DNA of 64,000 nucleotides from a virus. The notes under the pieces were generated by a model. It saw only the letters and a list, made by a program, of their open reading frames with translations, was not told where the DNA came from and did no database searches. Position numbers and translations under genes: made by a program. Where the stretch lies: the UHGV virus genome UHGV-1378817, one strand, 5' to 3'. This document shows, piece by piece, positions 4,977-41,837 of the stretch (the first letter of the stretch is position 1; the number at the start of each line of letters is the position of its first letter).

Positions 4977-5954
4977 TTATTTGGTAGATTCTGCACGTGC
5001 ACGAGCAAGTGCTTTTGCAACGTTTTCAGCAAGAATTTCTTCTGCGGATTTCGCAATATCATCCACAACAGGTTCGCCATCATTACCATGTTCAGTGGTG
5101 GCAAACTCTTCTTTGGTTTTATGCACCTCTGCTTCCAGCTCTTCAATTTTTGCTTGAGCTTTCTCCAGCATAGCTACGATAGGTTCGTTAGCTTTTTCCA
5201 GCATGAAGTCAACCAGGGTTGCATGATCTTCTTCACCAACAAAGCTTAAAGCTTGAGCCTTAGTCAGCATTTTAGCTTTTTCAACTTCAACCTGGGCCTT
5301 GATGATTTCTTCAGCTTTACTCTGGGTTGCTTTCAGCTCTTCTACTTGCTTCAGCAGATCCAGATACTCTTTAGTTTTGGTTACGTCCACCGGATTCTCC
5401 TCGGTATTTGCGGATTTTGCAACATCATCCACCTCGGCAGTTTTATCCACCTCAGCAGGTTCCTGTACCGCCTTGATCAGGTTCCCTTCTTTATCGAAGA
5501 GATCAGCGGTTACTTGTTCAAAAATCTGTTGTGTTTTTAACAGGCTGTACTGATCTACCACGCTAAGCTGCTTACCTTCTTTTGCAGCTTTATGAATGGT
5601 CACGTTATCACAACGCTCTTCCAGCCATGCAATACAAGACTCTGCGTCAGCTTGCGCCCATTCCCAATCAGGATGCTCTTTAGCCCAAGCCTCCTCTTCA
5701 ATCTCAAAACCAAGCATGTGTGCAAGTGCTTTAGCATCATCATACCACATATCAAAGAAACGACGCAGGTATTCTTCAAAACTAAGCTCCACAGTAACTT
5801 GGCGAAGTGCCTTAACAATATCGTCTGTTAACTGCTCAGGCTTAAGATCACTCTTCATCAAAAGAGATACAGGTCTGTTGTTAGCGCTATAGCCTTGCGC
5901 CTTATGGCACAGGGCAATCCCCTTCTCTTTAATAGTAATCGTTTTTTCAGACAT
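4977..5954 (-). CDS. putative head scaffolding protein
   Basis: 325 aa, highly charged with long predicted coiled-coil stretches (EELKATQSKAEEIIKAQVEVEKAK...); sits between portal-side genes and capsid. Confidence 0.45.
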   Translation of the reverse strand: MSEKTITIKEKGIALCHKAQGYSANNRPVSLLMKSDLKPEQLTDDIVKALRQVTVELSFEEYLRRFFDMWYDDAKALAHMLGFEIEEEAWAKEHPDWEWAQADAESCIAWLEERCDNVTIHKAAKEGKQLSVVDQYSLLKTQQIFEQVTADLFDKEGNLIKAVQEPAEVDKTAEVDDVAKSANTEENPVDVTKTKEYLDLLKQVEELKATQSKAEEIIKAQVEVEKAKMLTKAQALSFVGEEDHATLVDFMLEKANEPIVAMLEKAQAKIEELEAEVHKTKEEFATTEHGNDGEPVVDDIAKSAEEILAENVAKALARARAESTK

Positions 5955-6373
5955 TATTCATTGCCCTCTTCTACAACACTGATCCCGAAGTTTACGTTGG
6001 TAATTTCACCAGTTTCTTCATCAACATTACCTGTTGCCTGAATGCTTAGGCCACCAACAATGCCAGCCTTCTTAGCTTCCCATAATTCAGGATTATTGTA
6101 TTTAACTTTAGCAACCCAAGAGCCAGCCTTGATGACCTGCTCAGTGCCAATTACTACAACATCAAACTCTTCTTGAATCCACGTCTTTTCAATAGTGAAA
6201 GAATCTGTAGAGGTCAAGTGAAAAAGGTTTTCAGAAACTAGGCCTGCGGCGTATGCTGCGTCCCAGTTATCTTTAGCCTTTTTGATGGTGTCTTTACTCA
6301 TCCACTCACCGTGAGCATCTTTAGTGTCAGGTTCGTAGATGATTTCGTAGGAAATCATTTCTTCCTGTGGCAT
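5954..6373 (-). CDS. hypothetical head morphogenesis protein
   Basis: ORF track 5954-6529 overlaps portal; trimmed to ATG at 6373 (MPQEEM...); acidic 139 aa. Confidence 0.3.
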   Translation of the reverse strand: MPQEEMISYEIIYEPDTKDAHGEWMSKDTIKKAKDNWDAAYAAGLVSENLFHLTSTDSFTIEKTWIQEEFDVVVIGTEQVIKAGSWVAKVKYNNPELWEAKKAGIVGGLSIQATGNVDEETGEITNVNFGISVVEEGNE

Positions 6374-6440
6374 CTTATTCCCCATGTGGATTATTTTATC
6401 ACGCCAAAGGAGGTTTTGCAACCCCCTGTGTTGATAATTT

Positions 6441-7997
6441 TTAATTTTCCATGTTGGATATGGAATTATCTCTGGTTGATGACATCTTAGAAGTGCCGTT
6501 GCCAGTGGATCCTGCAGCCATTCCATCACCAGCCCTACTAATGTCCTGGCCCAAGAGCTTCATCAGCTCTTCCTGATCCATGTCCTCGTCAAATCTTTCA
6601 TCAAACCCGCCTACTTCAAGAATCTTATTAATTACTGCAGGAGTTTTTGGCAAGTAACCTACAGCACCGATCCTCTGGACAAACTTGGAGAAGCTCTCCA
6701 TATCCACTTCTTCAATCAGACCAGGTTTCAGTTTAGGCATATCATCATCTTCAAGGATGATACCATTCAATGCCAGAAGCTGTGGAATAAGATCTTTATT
6801 GAAGGCCTCAGTGATAATATCTATATCACGCTGAACAAAATGACCATGGATAGACTGTTTTGACTCAGACAGAGAGAAGGACCCAACGTTATCGTTACCG
6901 AGGTTAATAAAGCCAGCACCGAAACGGTCAAGAATCGCCTTCTTACGGGCATCAATCAAATCTTTAGTGGAATACTGCTTACCCATACCGTCAACCCCCT
7001 TCAGGGTCATGGAGTAAAGCTCTTTACCAGACTTATCTCTATCAGACGGAAGTATAAAGAAACTTTGCTCACCACTATGGGCGTTTGCTGCGTCAAGCAT
7101 AAGGTCTGCAACCATTCTCCCTTCCATTGAATTCGGGTCAATGCTGGCCTTGTTCAAAATATTGGAAGGAATTTTCAGCTCAAGCACACCACCAAGGTCT
7201 TTGGAACAGCCAACAACCTCAAGGTTTTCAATCAGAACTTTCTCACGGAAAGATCTGTAGCAACCTATCATCGGTGACACACCTGCAGGGTTAGATTCTG
7301 TTCCTGACAGGGTCATGAGCATAAGCTTTTTAGCAGGGATGAAAATTTCAGGCTCATTAAAGCCTTTTGAAGGCATTGCAGCAAGAGGTCCAGCCCAGCG
7401 TGCATTCTGAGTGTTTAGAAATGCATTAGGTGATTGATAAATACCTGTCAGTGTTCTACTATTCTTGTCAAAGACAAACGGCTCTGATCTGGACAAACTG
7501 GCCTGAGGTCGGAATGCAATTTTATCAATAAGAAGCATCCCGGTATATTTACCTTCTTTCTCTCTGCGGTATACTTTCTCAAACAGTGAAAAACCATACT
7601 CGTTAAAGGTAGCTGCGCTTCTTGCAATATCTCGAAGAGTTTGTTGGTTTGCCAAATTACGCAAAGAATACTCTATAAGCTCTGCAGCTTTCTTAGAGTC
7701 TTCACTTTTAACATTATAAAGGATCTTAAAATCATTGAATGCTTTCGTGATGAAAACATATTTTGTATCTAAGGCAGTAGCAACTGTGGAATCACATTTC
7801 ATAGTCTCCACTGTGGCAATCAGCTGAGGCCAACGCAATTCCTCAACCATCATAGATTGCGATTCTGCCATAATTTGGGAAAGTGCGCCAGAACCGATCT
7901 CACTCATACGAACATTATGAGTTGGTGCGCCTGCGTTCCCAGATTTATTCACAGTTTTGGCTGTGGCGTTGTGTTTCCTGCGGTTCTTTTTGGACAC
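6441..7997 (-). CDS. portal protein (putative)
   Basis: 518 aa ORF directly downstream of large terminase; size and position typical of portal. Confidence 0.55.
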   Translation of the reverse strand: MSKKNRRKHNATAKTVNKSGNAGAPTHNVRMSEIGSGALSQIMAESQSMMVEELRWPQLIATVETMKCDSTVATALDTKYVFITKAFNDFKILYNVKSEDSKKAAELIEYSLRNLANQQTLRDIARSAATFNEYGFSLFEKVYRREKEGKYTGMLLIDKIAFRPQASLSRSEPFVFDKNSRTLTGIYQSPNAFLNTQNARWAGPLAAMPSKGFNEPEIFIPAKKLMLMTLSGTESNPAGVSPMIGCYRSFREKVLIENLEVVGCSKDLGGVLELKIPSNILNKASIDPNSMEGRMVADLMLDAANAHSGEQSFFILPSDRDKSGKELYSMTLKGVDGMGKQYSTKDLIDARKKAILDRFGAGFINLGNDNVGSFSLSESKQSIHGHFVQRDIDIITEAFNKDLIPQLLALNGIILEDDDMPKLKPGLIEEVDMESFSKFVQRIGAVGYLPKTPAVINKILEVGGFDERFDEDMDQEELMKLLGQDISRAGDGMAAGSTGNGTSKMSSTRDNSISNMEN

Positions 7998-21139: not shown

Positions 21140-21604
21140 GTGGAAGACGGACGTTTAATGAAGTCTGAACGCAGGCTTATTGTGCAACTGATCCCAGAAA
21201 CAGCTTGGTATAATAACCTCCGAAACGCTGTGAAGAAGAGTGAGTGGGATAAGATCCGTAAGAAGTGCTACAGAGAAGCCAACTACACTTGTGAGGTGTG
21301 CGGCGGTAAAGGCAGCAAACATCCAGTGGAATGTCATGAACTTTACACTTTCGAAGAGGGAGTGATCCGGCTTGTCGGACTGATAGCGTTGTGCCCAGAT
21401 TGTCACACATCTGTGCATCCTGGGTTAGCAAATATCCGTGGAAAGTATGCTCAGGCAGTTAGTCAGTTGGCTAAGGTGAATAAGATCACTAAGGGTATGG
21501 CAGAGGCGTATTACCGAGACTGCTTTGCAGAGTGGCGTGAGCTTAGTAAAGTTCCGGAATGGAAGACTGACTTTTCTTGGATACATCAGTATTTGGAGAG
21601 TTAA
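21140..21604 (+). CDS. HNH endonuclease
   Basis: CEVCG...HELY...CPDCH zinc-finger HNH pattern. Confidence 0.55.
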   Translation: MEDGRLMKSERRLIVQLIPETAWYNNLRNAVKKSEWDKIRKKCYREANYTCEVCGGKGSKHPVECHELYTFEEGVIRLVGLIALCPDCHTSVHPGLANIRGKYAQAVSQLAKVNKITKGMAEAYYRDCFAEWRELSKVPEWKTDFSWIHQYLES

Positions 21605-22461
21605 GTGTGGTATACTACAATGACAATGATAAAGATGCAGTTGCTTGGTTGAAGAATCTAATATCTTTAGGACTACTTCCTCAAGGCGAGGTGGATGATC
21701 GTTCTATTACAGAGGTTACTGTAGAAGATCTTAGAGGTTTCACTCAGTGGCACTTCTTCGCTGGCATAGGTGGATGGCCTTTGGCCTTGAAACTTGCTGG
21801 CATTCCAGAAACTTGGTCGGTATGCACAGGATCTCCGTGCTGCCAACCTTTCTCTCAGGCAGGTAAGCAACGTGGAAAATTTGACCCAAGACATCTTGCA
21901 CCAACATACCTCCGGCTCGTTAAACAGCTTAAACCTGAGTTCATGTTTGGAGAGCAGGTTGCAAAAGCGGTTGAATCTGGATGGCTCGACGATATGCAGA
22001 ATGAAATGGAAAACTCTGGTTACAGCTTCGGGGCTTCCATACTTAATGCTGCAATCCTCAACGCCCCGCACCGCCGCGAACGACTTTACTTCGGGGCAGT
22101 TAGCAACGTGGTTAACCCCTACGGTAACTCAGGTAGGGTGCAGATCTCAGGAAGCGATGGAAAGGCGCAAGCAACAACGCTTAGCAACTGGCAGGAAGTC
22201 ATTAAGTCCTGGGAATCTGTGGGAGCAGGTGAGGATGTATTACGGGTGTGGGAGCATACAAGACAGTATCTATGCCGAGACGGAAAATGGCGTAAACTTC
22301 CTGAACCCGGCATTCCCTTGTTGGTTGATGGGCTATCCACCCCAATGGGATTGTCTCGCCACAAAGGCTTCGGTAACGCTATAGTTCCGCAAATAGGGGC
22401 ACTTTGGGTGCAAGAGTTTATGAAGTCAGTGGATGATTGTGTAAGAGGTGAGTATGGCTAA
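21577..22461 (+). CDS. DNA (cytosine-5)-methyltransferase
   Basis: Motif I FFAGIGG, motif IV PCCQPFSQAG, ENV-like FGEQV, motif X GNAIVP; start uncertain (overlaps HNH gene by 28 nt). Confidence 0.75.
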   Translation: MDTSVFGELSVVYYNDNDKDAVAWLKNLISLGLLPQGEVDDRSITEVTVEDLRGFTQWHFFAGIGGWPLALKLAGIPETWSVCTGSPCCQPFSQAGKQRGKFDPRHLAPTYLRLVKQLKPEFMFGEQVAKAVESGWLDDMQNEMENSGYSFGASILNAAILNAPHRRERLYFGAVSNVVNPYGNSGRVQISGSDGKAQATTLSNWQEVIKSWESVGAGEDVLRVWEHTRQYLCRDGKWRKLPEPGIPLLVDGLSTPMGLSRHKGFGNAIVPQIGALWVQEFMKSVDDCVRGEYG

Positions 22462-25931: not shown

Positions 25932-26915
25932 ATGATGACAAAGTTAACTCTTGAGCAAATTTTAACACTAAAGCAACAGGGATACACTAATAGACAAATT
26001 GCTCGTGAATTTTTAGGCCGTGAGTCACGTGAGAGCTGGATCCGACTACAGCTTAAACGTGCACAAGAGAATATGTCAGAGATTGTAGGAGAAGCAACGG
26101 AGCGCTTCCTTGAAGAGCACAAAGGTGCTAAAGTTTGGGTGTATGATACAGAGACATCTCCAACAAACGGCTGGTTCTTTGGGCACTATAAGACCAACAT
26201 TCAAACCTGCGGTATTGAAATTATGCCCTACATGCTAACTTTCGCAGGTAAGTGGTTAGACAGTCCTAGTGTGGTTGACTGCGCTCTTCCTGATTACAAA
26301 ATGTGGGATGAGGATATTCACAATGATCTCGAATTGATTCAGGATTTGTGGTATTATCTGGATACATGTGATGTCGCAGTAGCCCACAATTCAGGTTTTG
26401 ACTGTGGGTGGGCCAACCAACGATTTGCATTTCACGGATTGCCTCCAACAAGCCCCTACAAAGAGGTTGACACCCTTAAAATGATCAAGAAGGCATTCCG
26501 TTTGAATGCAAACACTTTGGAGTATGCATGCAAATACTTCCAACTTGCCCGACAGAAACTGATTGACCACACATTTGAAATGTGGATCAAGTGTGTTCAC
26601 GGTGATCTTGAGGCGTTTAAACAGATGCGGGAGTACAATGTTGGCGATATCCTATCTCTGGAAGGCCTGTATTTGCTGGCTCGCCCGTTTGCTAAGCAGC
26701 ACCCCAACATGTCATTGTACTACCAGGATGAGGAGCCAAAAGTTCGTTGCCCACGCTGTGGTGGAGAACACCTTCACGAGGAAGAAGCTTTGGCGTATAC
26801 TCAACTGAGTGCATTTAAAACATACCGCTGCGAAGGTTGTGGATCTGTTGTTCGTGACCGTAACAACATCCGCACCAGAGAAGAAATGAAAAATACCCTG
26901 ATTCAGATAATCTAA
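25932..26915 (+). CDS. DnaQ-like 3'-5' exonuclease with C-terminal zinc ribbon
   Basis: Exo I VWVYDTETS, Exo II VAHNSGFDCGW, Exo III YNVGDILSLEGLY; C-terminal CPRCGG...CEGCG. Confidence 0.7.
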   Translation: MMTKLTLEQILTLKQQGYTNRQIAREFLGRESRESWIRLQLKRAQENMSEIVGEATERFLEEHKGAKVWVYDTETSPTNGWFFGHYKTNIQTCGIEIMPYMLTFAGKWLDSPSVVDCALPDYKMWDEDIHNDLELIQDLWYYLDTCDVAVAHNSGFDCGWANQRFAFHGLPPTSPYKEVDTLKMIKKAFRLNANTLEYACKYFQLARQKLIDHTFEMWIKCVHGDLEAFKQMREYNVGDILSLEGLYLLARPFAKQHPNMSLYYQDEEPKVRCPRCGGEHLHEEEALAYTQLSAFKTYRCEGCGSVVRDRNNIRTREEMKNTLIQII

Positions 26916-26923
26916 CAATTATA

Positions 26924-26951
26924 GGGAGGCTTGCGCCTCCCTTTTCCTTTT
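26924..26951 (+). terminator. intrinsic terminator
   Basis: GGGAGGC-ttgc-GCCTCCC followed by TTTTCCTTTT, 9 nt after exonuclease stop. Confidence 0.65.
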
Positions 26952-26960
26952 GGAGGCACT

Positions 26961-27779
26961 TTGAGCAAGAAAGAGTCCAACGACAAATACTACACAAACC
27001 CTGAGTATGCAGAATATCTTGTTGGTAAAGTAAAAGATAAGTATGGGAATTGTGCATACGTTGAGCCTTCTGCTGGAAGGGGTTCTTTTTCAAAACTATT
27101 TTCAGAGATACTGTCGTACGATTTAGTACCAGATCCTGAATTTGAAGGACCAACACCGTGCATTCAGGCAAACTTCTTGGAGGTGCATCCCAAGGCAGAT
27201 GTCTTCATAGGTAACCCACCATTTGGCAAGAATTCATCCTTAGCTTGCAAATTCTTTAACCATTGTGCATCATTGCTAGAGCTTGGAGGGGCTATAGCCT
27301 TCATCTTGCCACGGACATTTGAAAAAATATTTTTTGCAAACAAACTGGACATGTCGATGCACCTTGTCTACAGCGAAAGGTGCCCTAAGAATTCGTTTTT
27401 ACTTAATGGCAAACCTTATGACGTGCCATGTGTTTTCCAAATTTGGGAGAAAAAGGCGTGCAATAGGGATCCTGTAGAGATTGGAGAGAATAAGTTATTT
27501 TCTTTTAGCACACCAGATGACTACGACTTCTGTGTAAGACGTGTTGGGTATAATGCTGGAAAAGTATTGGGGGATGATGACCCAAAATCTGAAGAATCAA
27601 CATATTTCATAAAATCTTTAGTTAACGGTGTTGACAGAGTGTTTGCTGAATGCTATTCTTCTTTTCAAGAAGAAGCAGGTAAGACTGCTGGAATGAAGAG
27701 TATAGGTAAGAAAGAACTACAATACATTTTGGAGACCAGGTATGATCAAAAGCATAGACTTGACCAAAGAACTTACTGA
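26961..27779 (+). CDS. DNA N6-adenine (or N4-cytosine) methyltransferase
   Basis: SAM motif VEPSAGRGSF and catalytic NPPF; track start (TTG 26931) lies inside the terminator, moved to TTG 26961 with GGAGG SD. Confidence 0.65.
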   Translation: MSKKESNDKYYTNPEYAEYLVGKVKDKYGNCAYVEPSAGRGSFSKLFSEILSYDLVPDPEFEGPTPCIQANFLEVHPKADVFIGNPPFGKNSSLACKFFNHCASLLELGGAIAFILPRTFEKIFFANKLDMSMHLVYSERCPKNSFLLNGKPYDVPCVFQIWEKKACNRDPVEIGENKLFSFSTPDDYDFCVRRVGYNAGKVLGDDDPKSEESTYFIKSLVNGVDRVFAECYSSFQEEAGKTAGMKSIGKKELQYILETRYDQKHRLDQRTY

Positions 27780-28200
27780 TGCAAAAGCTTTTGGTGAGAC
27801 AGCGGTACAAAGAGGACAGGCGATGGGACTGGCACTACCTTTCGTCTTAAAAGAGCACTTTACAGATTTTCAACTTATCAAAGGTGATAAGGGAATGCTT
27901 ATCCTGGAGCATAAGTTGAGTAAGAAACGCTATAAAGTCGTTTTTAATTCTAAAGCTCCAACAAAACTGGGATTCAGAACTTACAATCTTAACCCTTCCT
28001 ACACTAAGGGTGTTGGAAGGGTAGAACAACAGCATTTCAGTGCCAGAGCTTCTTTAGCCCCTTTGATGCTAAATTTCTCAGGGGTGGCTTTAGGATACCT
28101 TGATAAGAAAAGGGTTCTTCATGTTCGTTTCACAGACTTTGTAACGCTTTTAGCTAACAACGAGGTTGATGAGAAGGGACGTGTAAAAACAAACTTCTAA
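27742..28200 (+). CDS. hypothetical protein
   Basis: 152 aa ORF. Confidence 0.4.
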   Translation: MIKSIDLTKELTDAKAFGETAVQRGQAMGLALPFVLKEHFTDFQLIKGDKGMLILEHKLSKKRYKVVFNSKAPTKLGFRTYNLNPSYTKGVGRVEQQHFSARASLAPLMLNFSGVALGYLDKKRVLHVRFTDFVTLLANNEVDEKGRVKTNF

Positions 28201-35048: not shown

Positions 35049-35327
35049 ATGAGCTGCGAAAAATCTTTTTTCATCATCATTTACGGTAAGGATAACTGCC
35101 CACATTGTGTCAGAGCAAAAGAATTTGCAATCAGCAAAGGTCTGCCTTTTGTATATAAGACACTTGGCGAGGGCTACACAAAAGAAGAGCTTATTGAGAA
35201 GTGCAGTCCAATTGTCCCTAGAACGTTGCCGCAGATCTTCTTAGAAAGCGATCTTGACAGTGTCCATATAGGCGGTGCCGACGATTTCATCTCTTTTGTT
35301 AAGAATGGTTTTGGAGAGAAAAAGTGA
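35049..35327 (+). CDS. glutaredoxin-like protein (NrdH/NrdC-type redoxin)
   Basis: CPHC active site in KDNCPHCVRAKEF; 92 aa; between nrdB and nrdD. Confidence 0.7.
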   Translation: MSCEKSFFIIIYGKDNCPHCVRAKEFAISKGLPFVYKTLGEGYTKEELIEKCSPIVPRTLPQIFLESDLDSVHIGGADDFISFVKNGFGEKK

Positions 35328-37447
35328 AAGTTGTAAAACGGGACGGTAGAGAAGAGTTCTATAACGGAATTAAGGTGATCAAGGCGGCAGAGTCCGCCTT
35401 ACTTGAGTCTGGGCATACTGAAGAAGAAGCTTACCGGATCGCCTGCGCGGTTAATGAAGTTGTTGCTAACAATCTACCAACCGACCAGTGCACGATCTCT
35501 GTAAAAAATATCCATATCCTTGTTGAAGATGCTCTTATGGATATGGGTTTAAAATGTGCAGCCAGAGAATACATCCAGTATAGACAGACAAGAGATAATA
35601 ACAGAGAGGCAGGTGGAAAACTGCTTGCAGATATTAGTGGCTTCTTGGATCGAACTTGTGATGAATTTACAAAAGAAAACGCAAATAAGCCTACTAATCA
35701 TGTACACACTCATCGCGACCTGCTTGCGGGTATTCTTAGCAAACACCTTGCATCAACACAGATCCTGCCAGACCGTGTCTCCGAAGAGCACAATAAGGGC
35801 TTCATCCATGTGCATGATCTTGACTACTTGATCAGTCCGTTAACAAACTGTTGTTTGGTAAACTATCCAGATATGTTGGAAAACGGATTCAACATTGGTA
35901 ACGCCCATGTCAGTAAGCCGAAGTCAATAGGGGTTGCAACAACAATCCTTAGCCAAATCTCTAGTGCGGTAGCTAGTGCTCAATATGGTGGTCAGACTAT
36001 GAGCCATATTGATCATTATCTGGCACAGTATGCTGAAGCAACCTATGAGAAGAACCTTAAATTTTGCCAGGAACATTGGTTGCCAGATGCTGAGAGTGTT
36101 GCAATGCAAATGACAGATAAAGACGTATTTGACAGCATGCAGACTTTGCTCTATCAAATCAATACGTTAACTTCTGTCAACGGGCAAACTCCATTCATCA
36201 CATTGAGTTTAGGACTGGATACCTCGGTCTTTGGTAGAATGATTACCAAAAACTACCTGAAAGTCCACAAAATGGGTCTTGGTGAAGAACGTATTACACC
36301 TGTGTTTCCTAAAGTGCTGTTCTTCCTAGAAGAGGGTGTCAACATGAACCCTGGGGATCCTAACTATGATTTGAAACGATTAGCTCTGGAATGCTGTGCA
36401 GAACGTATCTACCCTGACTTCGTGTCTGTACCACTAAATAGAAAAGTGACAGGCTCGACAGATGGCAAAGTAACGAGCATGGGTTGCCGGAGTTTTCTTA
36501 GCAAATACAATGACTTGGAAACAGGCGAGGAGAAATATCTTGGCAGATTTAACTTAGGCGTTGTTAGCCTTAACCTGCCAATGATTGCGGCAAAAGCTAA
36601 GACGGAAGGTGTTGATTTCTTTGCAGTTCTTGACGAATACTTGGATCTTGCATACGAGGCTCACCTTGTAAGGGTTAATCGTCTAAAAGGAACAAAGGCA
36701 GGGCAGAACCCCATCATGTGGTGTGAAGGCGCTCTTGCTCGCCTGGATCCTGAAGAGAGTATTGATAAACTCTTCTATGACGGGTACGCTTCCATCAGTA
36801 TTGGGTATATCGGTGTGTATGAAACCTGTCAGATTTTGGGTAGAGAGGGTGACAAGGCTTTAGCTCTTGGAATCCTTCAGCACATGAGAGATGCTTGTGA
36901 GCGATACAAGAAGGAAAGTAGACTAGCATTTAGCTTGTACGGCACTCCTTCTGAGAGTCTATGCTATAAAGCTGCAACCTGTCTGGATCGTGAATATCCG
37001 GAAGTGTTAAAGCACGATCATGAATATCTCACCAACAGTTTCCATCAGCCAGTATGGATAAATAGCTCTCCTTTTGATAAGTGGGAGTATGAGGAAGGTT
37101 TTGCTATGATCTCCTCTGGTGGCAACATCGGATACGTAGAGACACCTAACCTGAAAAACAACCTGGATGCTTTAGAGGCTCTTGTTGACTTCGGGTATAA
37201 ACACATTATGTATTTTGGTATTAACCAACCTGTGGATAAATGTCTCAAGTGCGGTTTCTCTGGTGAGTTCAGTGCAACAGCTAAAGGCTTTGTATGCCCA
37301 GAGTGTGGAAACCATGAAGAGGGAACGATCAGTGTAATTCGACGTGTGTCTGGATACCTTTCCAGTCCTAACTCCCGTCCTTACAATAAAGGTAAGCAAG
37401 CGGAAGTTATCGAGCGAGTTAAGCACTACGGAAGTTGTGGTTGCTGA
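35324..37447 (+). CDS. nrdD: anaerobic ribonucleoside-triphosphate reductase
   Basis: 707 aa; C-terminal zinc ribbon CLKCG...CPECG and glycyl-radical motif RVSGYL. Confidence 0.9.
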   Translation: MKVVKRDGREEFYNGIKVIKAAESALLESGHTEEEAYRIACAVNEVVANNLPTDQCTISVKNIHILVEDALMDMGLKCAAREYIQYRQTRDNNREAGGKLLADISGFLDRTCDEFTKENANKPTNHVHTHRDLLAGILSKHLASTQILPDRVSEEHNKGFIHVHDLDYLISPLTNCCLVNYPDMLENGFNIGNAHVSKPKSIGVATTILSQISSAVASAQYGGQTMSHIDHYLAQYAEATYEKNLKFCQEHWLPDAESVAMQMTDKDVFDSMQTLLYQINTLTSVNGQTPFITLSLGLDTSVFGRMITKNYLKVHKMGLGEERITPVFPKVLFFLEEGVNMNPGDPNYDLKRLALECCAERIYPDFVSVPLNRKVTGSTDGKVTSMGCRSFLSKYNDLETGEEKYLGRFNLGVVSLNLPMIAAKAKTEGVDFFAVLDEYLDLAYEAHLVRVNRLKGTKAGQNPIMWCEGALARLDPEESIDKLFYDGYASISIGYIGVYETCQILGREGDKALALGILQHMRDACERYKKESRLAFSLYGTPSESLCYKAATCLDREYPEVLKHDHEYLTNSFHQPVWINSSPFDKWEYEEGFAMISSGGNIGYVETPNLKNNLDALEALVDFGYKHIMYFGINQPVDKCLKCGFSGEFSATAKGFVCPECGNHEEGTISVIRRVSGYLSSPNSRPYNKGKQAEVIERVKHYGSCGC

Positions 37448-40971: not shown

Positions 40972-40983
40972 ACATTAATTCTA

Positions 40984-41006
40984 AAGCCCTCTTCGGAGGG
41001 CTTTTA
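40984..41006 (+). terminator. intrinsic terminator
   Basis: AGCCCTC-ttcg-GAGGGCT followed by TTTATGAT, 13 nt after ClpP-like stop. Confidence 0.55.
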
Positions 41007-41022
41007 TGATCTGGAGATTTGC

Positions 41023-41556
41023 ATGACTTGTGCTAGAAAACCTGATGAACAACGTAACGCCTACGACGAGTATGTGACACCGGAGTGGTGTGCAGAAGGG
41101 CTGTATGACCTTATTCCGTTCCCAGAAGACTGGACCTACTTAGAGCCTTGCAGGAATAGTGCCTCAGGTGTGTTTTACTCCCGTATGCCGTTAGGATCTG
41201 CATGGGGAGAAATCCAAGAAGGTGTTGACTATCTGAATACAGAATACAACCATGTTGACTGTATTATCACCAACCCACCATACAGCCTAGCTCGTGAGTT
41301 TGTAGACAAGGCGTTGAAAGATGCTGACGTAGTTATTATGCTTTTGCGTCTTAATTTTCTGGAAAGCAAAGCCAGATTTGAATGGTGGCTTGATAATGCA
41401 CCCACTACTGTGATCACAATATCTAAGCGTCCATCATTTCAATCAAATGGTAGAACTGACGGGCAAGCATATGCGTATTTTGTGTGGGATAAGAAAAACC
41501 GTTTAGGCTTGCCGCCATTTATGTGGTTGGCACCACCAGAGGTGGACCTGAAATGA
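41023..41556 (+). CDS. small N6-adenine methyltransferase-like protein
   Basis: Catalytic-type motif IITNPPY; 177 aa. Confidence 0.5.
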   Translation: MTCARKPDEQRNAYDEYVTPEWCAEGLYDLIPFPEDWTYLEPCRNSASGVFYSRMPLGSAWGEIQEGVDYLNTEYNHVDCIITNPPYSLAREFVDKALKDADVVIMLLRLNFLESKARFEWWLDNAPTTVITISKRPSFQSNGRTDGQAYAYFVWDKKNRLGLPPFMWLAPPEVDLK

Positions 41557-41837
41557 AAATGAGTGCTAAGGACAAATTACACCAGTTAGCGCTAAAACGT
41601 CCTGTAACGCTCCCTGACGAGCTTAACTCCATTTATGATGCGATTGTAGGGGAGATACAAAATAAAGCGTTAGCAGGCTTTCTGGGATGCGGATTTTCGA
41701 TAAATCTACCCTCGCATCTCTCAGACTACTTCCCGCACATTGTTGGAGATTTAAGGGCAGGAGGTCTGCAGGTAGATGTTGTTGGCATCTCCCCAGAGAA
41801 AAATAATACGGTTGCCTACTTGACAGTAACCTGGTAG
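41553..41837 (+). CDS. hypothetical protein
   Basis: Start set to ATG 41553 (ATGA overlap; GAGGTGG SD). Confidence 0.4.
   Translation: MKMSAKDKLHQLALKRPVTLPDELNSIYDAIVGEIQNKALAGFLGCGFSINLPSHLSDYFPHIVGDLRAGGLQVDVVGISPEKNNTVAYLTVTW

What the first reader, a model, noticed from the sequence alone, without database searches (positions are those of the whole stretch)
26961..27779. Multiple DNA methyltransferases in one phage (NPPF at 26961-27779, NPPY at 41023-41556, plus the C5 enzyme)
Three separate methyltransferase-like genes, two with amino-methyltransferase catalytic motifs and one C5, suggest extensive self-methylation as an anti-restriction strategy. The small 177-aa NPPY protein may be a stand-alone catalytic module needing a partner. 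The first gene apparently starts on TTG inside the T-tail of the upstream terminator.
Basis: partly seen in the sequence, partly recalled or inferred. Interest (0 to 1): 0.45.

Follow-up and report, generated by a model that had tools for sequence, protein, structure and literature searches.

The report
Orphan DNA methyltransferases of rV5-like phage
The window comes from a well-known rV5-like E. coli phage, and the flagged genes are its already-annotated putative DNA methyltransferases (two in nearly every relative, one rare insertion); phages of this group are experimentally very sensitive to restriction enzymes, so the methylation is not a broad shield.

Summary
Three methyltransferase-like genes exist at or near the stated coordinates, and their homology is far beyond chance. 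The window is a Vequintavirus (rV5-like phage, 99.7% to slur16/rV5 variants).

- **NPPF gene (26961-27779, 272 aa).** It is a full-length member of a type II restriction-modification adenine methyltransferase family. Bacterial homologues are followed by a type II restriction endonuclease gene. The phage copy has none, so it is an orphan. The TTG start is correct and forced. It lies 10 nt after the terminator's T-tract, behind a GGAGG ribosome-binding site, not inside the tail.
- **NPPY gene (41023-41556, 177 aa).** It is a M.TaqI-like catalytic domain with all cofactor motifs but no target-recognition domain. It belongs to a phage-wide family with no conserved neighbouring partner.
- **C5 gene (21607-22461).** It is an 870-bp foreign insertion found in only 4 of 121 related genomes.

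Public records already annotate all three genes, and Murica's annotates both terminators. BASEL phages carrying both adenine enzymes are "exceptionally susceptible" to six tested restriction systems. "Extensive anti-restriction" is therefore only partly supported.

The verdict is ordinary. Two side observations are worth a look: the recognition-domain-less enzyme, and an apparently permuted motif order in the C5 family.

The parts
26923..26951 (+). Intrinsic-terminator-like hairpin (stem 26923-26942, loop TTGC) with T-tract TTTTCCTTTT, placed after the DnaQ-like exonuclease gene (25932-26915).
   Evidence: it is the strongest terminator-like site in 25-45 kb.: -19.2 kcal/mol, z=-3.5; annotated as 'terminator' in phage Murica; stem invariant in 6 phages, loop inverted to GCAA in DrSchubert.
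26952..26956 (+). GGAGG ribosome-binding site, 4 nt before the TTG start.
   Evidence: Sequence. Annotated as an RBS in Murica. Invariant in the six-phage alignment.
26961..27779 (+). NPPF gene: a 272-aa orphan gamma-class N6-adenine DNA methyltransferase with a TTG start. Motif X (YYT) is at 26988-26996, motif I at 27063-27089, NPPF at 27213-27224. The C-terminal ~105 aa carries family-invariant R194, G196, G200, G244, S247 and E252.
40983..41007 (+). Second terminator-like hairpin (AAAGCCCTC-TTCG-GAGGGCTTT) with U-rich tail, between the ClpP-like protease gene and the NPPY gene. GGAG at 41013-41016 precedes the ATG at 41023.
   Evidence: sequence.: -14.9 kcal/mol, z=-2.5; annotated as terminator plus RBS in Murica. 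The simple scan did not flag it, because the T-run is absorbed into the stem.
41023..41556 (+). NPPY gene: a 177-aa M.TaqI-like catalytic-domain-only methyltransferase. YVTP is at 41071-41082, EPCRNSASG at 41143-41169, GEIQ (motif II acid) at 41206-41217, VDYL (motif III) at 41224-41235, NPPY at 41272-41283.
21584..22453 (+). 870-bp insertion relative to slur16, where 13 bp occupy the same place. It carries the C5 gene and has 48.5% GC against 42.8% for the window.
   Evidence: BLASTN boundaries and GC; only 4 of 121 records cover it.
21607..22461 (+). C5-cytosine methyltransferase-like gene, 284 aa from GTG 21607 (the mechanical ORF starts at TTG 21577). The motif I-like FFAGIGG is at 21754-21774, SPCCQPFS at 21832-21855, GEQV at 21949-21960, RRERLYF at 22072-22092, GNAIVP at 22372-22389.
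21140..21604 (+). HNH endonuclease gene whose 3' end abuts the C5 insertion.
   Evidence: (phrog_5200, E=2.6e-71).

Best explanation
The window is part of an rV5-like Vequintavirus genome. It encodes two core orphan N6-adenine DNA methyltransferases of the gamma (M.TaqI-like) motif order. In this isolate it also carries an accessory C5-cytosine methyltransferase acquired as an 870-bp cassette.

The 272-aa NPPF enzyme derives from a compact type II restriction-modification methyltransferase family. The phage kept the M gene without the R gene. It most likely uses S-adenosylmethionine to methylate adenine in one short specific motif on replicating phage DNA. That would protect progeny only against restriction enzymes sharing that motif.

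The 177-aa NPPY enzyme keeps every cofactor and catalytic motif but has no separate recognition domain. It most likely acts alone, with relaxed or loop-encoded specificity.

Both adenine-methyltransferase genes sit directly behind terminator hairpins. One also has a weak TTG start, which suggests low expression through read-through.

Shown here: homology, fold, motif integrity, gene context, distribution and start codon. Inferred: DNA as substrate for NPPY, the specificities, the protective role and the expression level.
For: **Identity of the phage**
-.

**NPPF protein**
- PADLOC type II MTase models match over the full length, with E=3.3e-34 and 1.5e-25.
- 794 homologues share invariant motifs X, I, II and IV.
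- The AF2 model has pLDDT 92.7.
- In Poseidonibacter, a 273-kb metagenomic contig and Paracoccaceae loci, the gene is followed, overlapping or within about 10-20 nt, by a 199-227-aa ORF. These ORFs are mutually homologous (E=5e-14 and 2e-18) and match PADLOC REase_II (E=5e-11 to 6e-4).
- The phage's downstream ORF is unrelated. Other phages have other neighbours.

**NPPY protein**
- PHROG 799 matches at E=5.5e-67.
- The family profile's best match to a solved structure is M.TaqI (E=1.4e-5), aligning YxTP, EPxxxxG, E (motif II), D-F/Y-L (motif III) and NPPY.
- Homologues sit in replication modules of unrelated phages.

**Distribution and annotation**
- Core status: 118 of 122 records for NPPF and all 119 matching records for NPPY.
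- The C5 gene scores 72.7 bits against PF00145 and is an insertion found in 4 of 121 records.
- Terminators and ribosome-binding sites.
Against: - No methylome or biochemical data for any of the three proteins were found.
- BASEL Vequintavirinae are 'exceptionally susceptible' to all six RM systems tested. Any protection must be narrow, and the real role may not be anti-restriction at all.
- Some sources name NPPF homologues 'predicted RNA methylase'.
- Both curated libraries fail to reach their cut-offs for the two adenine enzymes.
- In the window's NPPF protein, the motif III aspartate is asparagine.
Confidence: 0.72

Rival explanations
1. The NPPF protein is an RNA (rRNA or tRNA) m6A methyltransferase of the METTL5 / COG2263 type that modifies host or phage RNA, not DNA.
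For: - The best solved-structure profile hits are Ta1320 (E=2.8e-4) and METTL5 (E=0.018), ahead of M.TaqI (E=0.09).
- Its motifs NPPF and 'DQYYT' resemble METTL5's NPPF and 'EQYPT'.
- JGI names several homologues 'predicted RNA methylase'.
- One homologue passes the Pfam RrnaAD cut-off.
- The phage encodes its own tRNAs.
Against: - PADLOC type II DNA MTase models match over the full length at E=3e-34.
- A restriction-endonuclease gene immediately follows the gene in at least three independent bacterial contexts.
- Only DNA MTases align with 229-250 of the 272 residues. RNA MTases cover just the ~150-aa core.
- The C-terminal ~105 aa carries family-invariant residues that are absent from the ~200-aa METTL5 proteins.
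Confidence: 0.07
2. The 177-aa NPPY protein is not a free-standing DNA methyltransferase. It could be a catalytic subunit that needs an unlinked specificity or activator partner, as METTL5 and Mtq2 need Trm112 or as type I M subunits need S. Alternatively, it could methylate RNA or a protein glutamine.
For: - It has no target-recognition domain and is only 177 aa.
- NPPY is also the catalytic motif of HemK-type glutamine methyltransferases, with a weak TIGR00536 hit.
- A small ORF (41523-41837) overlaps its 3' end.
Against: - Neighbouring genes differ completely between phage lineages that carry homologues: an 88-aa ORF, a primase, or a PDDEXK protein.
- The genes consistently sit among DNA replication genes.
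Confidence: 0.18
3. The genes are decaying relics with no methyltransferase activity. The susceptibility of the phage group to restriction would then reflect inactive enzymes.
For: - Vequintavirinae are highly restriction-sensitive.
- The genes have weak expression signals: a TTG start and a position immediately after a terminator.
- The window proteins have the substitutions D to N in motif III of NPPF and PPCQ to PCCQ in the C5 enzyme.
Against: - Both adenine MTase ORFs are intact in 118-119 related genomes at 90-100% identity.
- By construction of the alignments, every family-invariant residue is present in the window proteins.
- N at motif III and PCCQ also occur in homologues at 53% (NPPF) and 79-80% (C5) identity, which argues for selection rather than decay.
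- Restriction sensitivity is equally explained by specificities that do not overlap the six systems tested.
Confidence: 0.05

Closest known systems
M.TaqI / M.BseCI / CamA (gamma-class N6-adenine DNA methyltransferases with solved structures)
   Different: M.TaqI (421 aa), M.BseCI (585 aa) and CamA have large C-terminal target-recognition domains. The NPPF protein has only a ~105-aa C-terminal subdomain. I could not determine whether that subdomain corresponds to a recognition domain or to the periphery of the M.TaqI catalytic domain. The NPPY protein has nothing beyond the catalytic core. Sequence identity is 15-21%.
Compact type II RM adenine methyltransferase family (PADLOC MTase_II PDLC03255/03256) paired with REase_II PDLC03460
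   Same: The NPPF protein matches over the full length (residues 8-253 against profile positions 2-249 of 269, E=3.3e-34). Bacterial homologues at 38-41% identity sit in M-R operons.
   Different: The phage copy has no adjacent endonuclease, so it is an orphan. The recognition sequence of the family is not known from the tools available here.
METTL5 / Ta1320 / PH1948 (COG2263) rRNA m6A methyltransferases
   Same: They share the NPPF catalytic motif, an N-terminal (D/E)QY(Y/P)T motif and the closest Rossmann core.
   Different: Those proteins are about 200 aa and lack the extra C-terminal subdomain. METTL5 works with TRMT112 and is not linked to restriction genes (general knowledge). The NPPF family is linked to endonuclease genes.
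Phage orphan Dam-type methyltransferases (Pfam PF05869, TIGR01712, e.g. the phage T1 / VT2 Dam group)
   Same: They are small phage-encoded orphan adenine methyltransferases without an obvious recognition domain. NPPY gives weak hits to them (E=0.001 and 0.006).
   Different: The scores (19.2 and 16.1 bits) are far below the cut-offs (28.1 and 97 bits), and only the region around the catalytic motif aligns. The NPPY family (PHROG 799) is a separate family.
M.HhaI-type C5-cytosine DNA methyltransferases (Pfam PF00145)
   Same: Motifs IV to VIII align with M.HhaI residues 69-176 (E=4.5e-13). Motif X (GNAIVP) and a motif I-like FFAGIGG are present.
   Different: Motif I lies only about 20 residues before motif IV. 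The N-terminus resembles M.HhaI motifs II-III instead. The window copy has PCCQ where the family has PPCQ. The variable region is short.

Membership tests
Gamma-class N6-adenine DNA methyltransferase (M.TaqI-like): NPPF protein | Linear motif order X, I, II, III, IV with (N/D)PP(Y/F) after the SAM-binding motifs | tested here: met
   YYT at aa 10-12, EPSAGRGSF at 35-43, D54, NPPF at 85-88. All are invariant or nearly invariant in 43 homologues.
Gamma-class N6-adenine DNA methyltransferase (M.TaqI-like): NPPF protein | Class I Rossmann methyltransferase fold | tested here: met
Gamma-class N6-adenine DNA methyltransferase (M.TaqI-like): NPPF protein | Separate C-terminal target-recognition domain | tested here: inconclusive
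   A ~105-aa C-terminal subdomain exists, and 229-250 residues align to M.TaqI, MmeI, CamA and M.BseCI. The tool gives no residue ranges, so equivalence to a recognition domain is unresolved.
Gamma-class N6-adenine DNA methyltransferase (M.TaqI-like): NPPF protein | Curated family cut-off (Pfam Eco57I / N6_Mtase, NCBIfam) | tested here: not met
   Eco57I scores 15.5 bits against a cut-off of 25.3. There is no NCBIfam hit.
Type II restriction-modification methyltransferase (PADLOC MTase_II PDLC03255) | Full-length profile match | tested here: met
   E=3.3e-34, residues 8-253 against profile positions 2-249 of 269.
Type II restriction-modification methyltransferase (PADLOC MTase_II PDLC03255) | Adjacent cognate restriction endonuclease gene | tested here: not met
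   The phage's downstream ORF 27742-28200 has no REase_II hit and does not align with the bacterial R candidates. The bacterial homologues do have one. The phage gene is therefore an orphan.
Any DNA methyltransferase (all three genes) | SAM-dependent methylation of DNA at a defined base and motif | not testable with these tools
   No methylome or enzymology was found for Vequintavirus.
METTL5-type rRNA m6A methyltransferase: NPPF protein | About 200-aa single-domain protein with an RNA substrate and no link to restriction genes | tested here: not met
   The protein is 272 aa with an extra conserved subdomain, and its homologues are linked to endonuclease genes. The core similarity is real.
Gamma-class N6-adenine DNA methyltransferase: NPPY protein | Motifs X, I, II, III and IV in gamma order with cofactor-binding acids retained | tested here: met
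   YVTP at 17-20, EPC at 41-43, E63 in GEIQ, D69 in VDYL, NPPY at 84-87. These align to M.TaqI residues 21-110.
Gamma-class N6-adenine DNA methyltransferase: NPPY protein | Target-recognition domain | tested here: not met
   The protein is 177 aa and the model ends with the core sheet. Family members are about 160-230 aa.
Phage Dam family (PF05869 / TIGR01712): NPPY protein | Score above the curated cut-off | tested here: not met
   19.2 bits against 28.1, and 16.1 against 97.
C5-cytosine DNA methyltransferase (PF00145): ORF 21607-22461 | Pfam gathering score | tested here: met
   72.7 bits against a cut-off of 22, but only residues 80-177 are matched.
C5-cytosine DNA methyltransferase (PF00145): ORF 21607-22461 | Canonical motif order I, II, III, IV ... 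X | tested here: not met
   - Residues 46-76 align to M.HhaI 3-33 and residues 76-180 to M.HhaI 69-176. M.HhaI 34-68 has no counterpart between them.
- The N-terminus aligns to M.HhaI 37-64 (E=0.003). About 5 of 2000 shuffles score as well.
- The whole family shares this order.
C5-cytosine DNA methyltransferase (PF00145): ORF 21607-22461 | Pro-Cys catalytic dipeptide in motif IV | tested here: inconclusive
   The window and its 80%-identical relative have SPCCQ where the family has SPPCQ. A Cys precedes Q, but the residue before it is Cys rather than Pro.

The most novel reading that the evidence does not exclude
Two unconventional enzymes may be hiding under routine annotations.

(a) The 177-aa NPPY family (PHROG 799) could be a minimal DNA adenine methyltransferase that works without any recognition domain. 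It might be non-specific or DNA-structure-specific, or it might borrow an unlinked partner. If so, it would be among the smallest DNA methyltransferases I know of.

(b) The accessory C5 enzyme belongs to a widespread phage and prophage family whose SAM-binding motif I appears to have moved to between motifs III and IV (order II-III-I-IV). I did not find this permutation described in the literature searched. In the Vequintavirus copies the catalytic Pro-Cys is also changed to Cys-Cys.
Probability: 0.25. Interest if true: 0.5.

Novelty: already known. Interest (0 to 1): 0.2.

Why it matters
As stated, the finding matters little.
- These genes are annotated as putative methyltransferases in more than 100 public rV5-like genomes.
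- Multiple orphan methyltransferases are commonplace in phages.
- Published work on related Vequintavirinae already lists several methyltransferase genes per genome.

The useful corrections are these:
- The enzymes cannot be a broad anti-restriction shield, because BASEL phages that carry them are highly restriction-sensitive. Their specificity or role is still open.
- The NPPF enzyme can be traced to a real type II RM family, which gives a route to its recognition site.
- One 'DNA methyltransferase' annotation circulating in RefSeq for this phage group is really the prohead protease.

If followed up, the recognition-domain-less NPPY enzyme and the permuted C5 family could be of modest interest to methyltransferase enzymologists and as epigenetic tools.

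Tried and rejected
- **Pfam and NCBIfam on the two adenine enzymes.** Only sub-threshold hits.
- **Single-sequence search of solved structures.** Nothing for NPPF and only noise for NPPY.
- **Direct BLASTP of NPPF against NPPY.** Marginal (E=0.028). The two are at most remote paralogues, although both touch PHROG 799.
- **The phage ORF downstream of NPPF (27742-28200) as a restriction enzyme or conserved partner.** Rejected. It has no PADLOC or Pfam hit, does not align with the bacterial R candidates, and other phages have different neighbours.
- **A conserved partner next to NPPY homologues.** None found.
- **Naming the bacterial endonuclease or the recognition sequence.** Solved structures, Pfam, NCBIfam and plasmid annotations gave no name.
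- **A profile of the C5 family's N-terminal 47 aa against all solved structures.** No C5 methyltransferase hit. Only the targeted comparison with M.HhaI was suggestive.
- **Literature searches for a Vequintavirus methylome or a described permuted C5 family.** Nothing specific.
- **The RefSeq 'DNA methyltransferase' slur16 gp118 (window 5954-6529, minus strand) as a fourth methyltransferase.** Rejected. It is an XkdF-type prohead protease.

Full report
**Source of the window.** A 5-kb stretch around the finding is 99.7% identical to Escherichia phages slur16, slur12, rV5_ev147/156 and APECc02. It matches 122 phage records at 90% identity or more, nearly all Vequintavirus (rV5-like myoviruses). 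Gene order matches the slur16 RefSeq record. There the same coordinates (window 26961-27779) are annotated 'SAM-dependent methyltransferase', and window 41023-41556 is annotated 'DNA methyltransferase'.

**Observation.** All three ORFs exist.
- The catalytic tetrapeptides lie at nt 27213-27224 (NPPF) and 41272-41283 (NPPY).
- The C5 motif IV lies at 21832-21855.
- Only four [ND]PP[FYW] strings occur in the six-frame translation of the whole window.
- More importantly, the family matches are strong:

| Gene | Library match | Score |
|---|---|---|
| NPPF | PHROG 5172 | E=2.6e-129 |
| NPPY | PHROG 799 'DNA methyltransferase' | E=5.5e-67 |
| C5 | PF00145 | 72.7 bits (cut-off 22) |

**NPPF gene: start and upstream signals.**
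- The protein's invariant motif-X residues D8 and T12 force the start upstream of nt 26982.
- The only in-frame start codons there are TTG 26931 and TTG 26961.
- Homologues from unrelated phages and bacteria begin MSK(K/L)N... exactly at the 26961 position.
- A GGAGG sits 4 nt upstream of 26961.
- TTG 26931 lies in the loop of the hairpin 26923-26942.
- In an alignment of six Vequintaviruses the stem, T-tract, GGAGG and TTG 26961 are invariant. DrSchubert has the loop inverted (GCAA), which removes TTG 26931.
- The hairpin is the strongest terminator-like site in 25-45 kb. It folds at -19.2 kcal/mol with z=-3.5.
- GenBank record KT001917 (phage Murica) already annotates the terminator, the RBS and this CDS start.

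It lies 10 nt after the T-tract rather than inside it.

**NPPF gene: what it is.**
- Curated libraries give only sub-threshold hits.
- A database search returns 794 homologues of about 250-290 aa. They share invariant D8, T12, E35-P36-x-A38-G39-x-G41-x-F43, D54, G84-N-P-P-F-G89 and a conserved C-terminal part (R194, G196, G200, G244, S247, E252).
- The family profile's best solved relatives are Ta1320 and METTL5 (rRNA m6A enzymes that also have NPPF), ahead of M.TaqI.
- The hits aligning 229-250 of the 272 residues are the DNA adenine methyltransferases M.BseCI, MmeI, CamA and M.TaqI.

Context and PADLOC decide between RNA and DNA.
- The protein matches PADLOC type II methyltransferase models over the full length (E=3.3e-34 and 1.5e-25).
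- In three independent bacterial contexts the homologue is followed at once by a 199-227-aa ORF. The contexts are a Poseidonibacter ostreae defence island beside type I M and S genes, a 273-kb metagenomic contig, and Paracoccaceae loci behind an IS1595 transposase.
- These ORFs are homologous to one another and match the PADLOC type II restriction enzyme model PDLC03460 (E=5e-11 to 6e-4).
- The phage's own downstream ORF (27742-28200) is unrelated.
- NPPF homologues in other phages sit among nucleotide-metabolism genes with different neighbours.

The gene is therefore an orphan copy of a compact type II RM adenine methyltransferase. Its recognition sequence could not be named.

**NPPY gene.**
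- The 177-aa protein belongs to a family of about 160-230-aa proteins found almost only on phage-like contigs.
- Conserved motifs are D-x-Y-x-T-P, E-P-C, T-N-P-P-Y, LLRLNFLES..R, RPSF and YAWFVW.
- The family profile's best match to a solved structure is M.TaqI (E=1.4e-5). The alignment runs through motif X, motif I, the motif II glutamate, the motif III aspartate and NPPY.
- The model (pLDDT 89.2) is a bare Rossmann core.
- The window's 'EPCRNSASG' lacks GxG, but so does M.TaqI's own motif I 'EPACAHGPF'.
- The 'needs a partner' idea gains no support from gene neighbourhood. Across three lineages the downstream gene is an 88-aa ORF, a primase, or a PDDEXK protein.
- A search of viral predicted structures found no characterised relative.
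- This gene too sits directly behind a hairpin plus U-tract (40983-41007; -14.9 kcal/mol, z=-2.5), followed by GGAG and ATG. Murica's record annotates a terminator and RBS there.

**C5 gene.**
- It is a precise 870-bp insertion (21584-22453) relative to slur16, at 48.5% GC against 42.8% for the window. It abuts the 3' end of an HNH endonuclease gene.
- Only 4 of 121 related records contain it. rV5 itself lacks it.
- The likely start is GTG 21607, which agrees with the 284-aa database entry and with the family N-termini.
- Motifs IV-VIII align with M.HhaI 69-176, and FFAGIGG with M.HhaI motif I. M.HhaI residues 34-68 (motifs II-III) have no counterpart between them.
- Instead, the family's N-terminal 'YYNEWDK...SITEV' aligns with M.HhaI 37-64 (E=0.003). 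About 5 of 2000 shuffles score as well.
- Two independent profiles begin their alignment at residue 8-10 against profile position 20-25.
- A stand-alone N-terminal profile against all solved structures was not significant.
- I could not fold the protein. The motif order II-III-I-IV is therefore a lead, not a result.
- The window copy and an 80%-identical relative carry PCCQ where the family has PPCQ.

**Function.**
- BASEL Vequintavirus isolates (JohannBauhin, WalterGehring, RudolfGeigy, JeffSchatz, MaxBurger, EmilHeitz, DrSchubert) carry one or both of the adenine methyltransferase genes in the searches made here.
[quoted passage not shown] The systems tested were EcoKI, EcoCFT_I, EcoRI, EcoRV, EcoCFT_II and EcoP1_I (PMC8594841).
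- The methyltransferases therefore do not give broad protection. At most they mask motifs that were not tested.
- The position behind terminators and the TTG start suggest low expression.
- I found no methylome or enzymology for this genus.

**Prior knowledge.**
- The genes are annotated as putative N6-adenine or DNA methyltransferases in many records.
- Papers on other Vequintavirinae already list several methyltransferase genes per genome and infer adenine and cytosine methylation (PMC12210895, PMC7344957, PMC11370258).
- One of the 'DNA methyltransferase' labels in RefSeq (slur16 gp118, window 5954-6529 minus strand) is actually an XkdF-type prohead protease (PF14550, 64 bits).

**Verdict.** The strategic interpretation is overstated, and the finding is already known at the annotation level. 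The recognition-domain-less NPPY enzyme and the apparently permuted C5 family are the only parts with some potential for novelty.

Noticed in passing
window 21607-22461 (motif I-like 21754-21774; motif IV 21832-21855): The whole C5 methyltransferase family of this gene, including prophage copies in E. coli and Pantoea and Klebsiella phage Seifer, has motif I only about 20 residues before motif IV. Its N-terminus resembles M.HhaI motifs II-III, so the apparent order is II-III-I-IV. The Vequintavirus copies have PCCQ instead of PPCQ.
   Followed up: partly
window 21584-22453: The C5 gene is an 870-bp higher-GC insertion placed exactly at the 3' end of an HNH endonuclease gene. It is present in only 4 of 121 related phage records (for example pangalan and HdK5).
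   Followed up: yes
window 26923-26951 and 40983-41007: Both adenine methyltransferase genes start within about 20 nt of a terminator-like hairpin, with the ribosome-binding site squeezed between the T-tract and the start codon. In the first case the T-tract can also pair with the GGAGG.
   Followed up: partly
window 5954-6529 (-): The orthologue of this ORF is named 'DNA methyltransferase' in RefSeq slur16 (gp118) and matches PHROG 1530, which has the same name. It is an XkdF-type prohead serine protease (PF14550), sitting between the portal and scaffold genes. The name is likely a propagated misannotation.
   Followed up: yes
L008 3242-5650, L009 90-2498, L010 169-2577 (Paracoccaceae): An IS1595-family transposase gene overlaps the start of the methyltransferase-endonuclease pair. 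This suggests that the RM cassette travels as transposon cargo. In Poseidonibacter (L003) the island splits an amino-acid permease gene.
   Followed up: no
homologues P0009, P0012 and others; L016 3501-4292: About a third of the NPPF homologues carry a precomputed hit to Pfam PF26055 'Mtase_EDM2', named after the methyltransferase-like domain of the plant protein EDM2. The local Pfam copy lacks this model, so the window protein could not be scored against it.
   Followed up: no
public records MG0656xx: About 20 GenBank records named 'Campylobacter phage', with host given as C. jejuni, are 95-100% identical to E. coli rV5-like phages. The host label looks doubtful.
   Followed up: no
window 35324-37447: The anaerobic ribonucleotide reductase gene nrdD is one uninterrupted 707-aa ORF here. 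In slur16 it is split by an HNH endonuclease gene. This is another homing-endonuclease presence/absence polymorphism.
   Followed up: no
plasmid record CP057073.1: A 137.6-kb 'E. coli plasmid' record encodes a 99.6%-identical NPPF protein. It is probably an rV5-like phage genome deposited as a plasmid.
   Followed up: no
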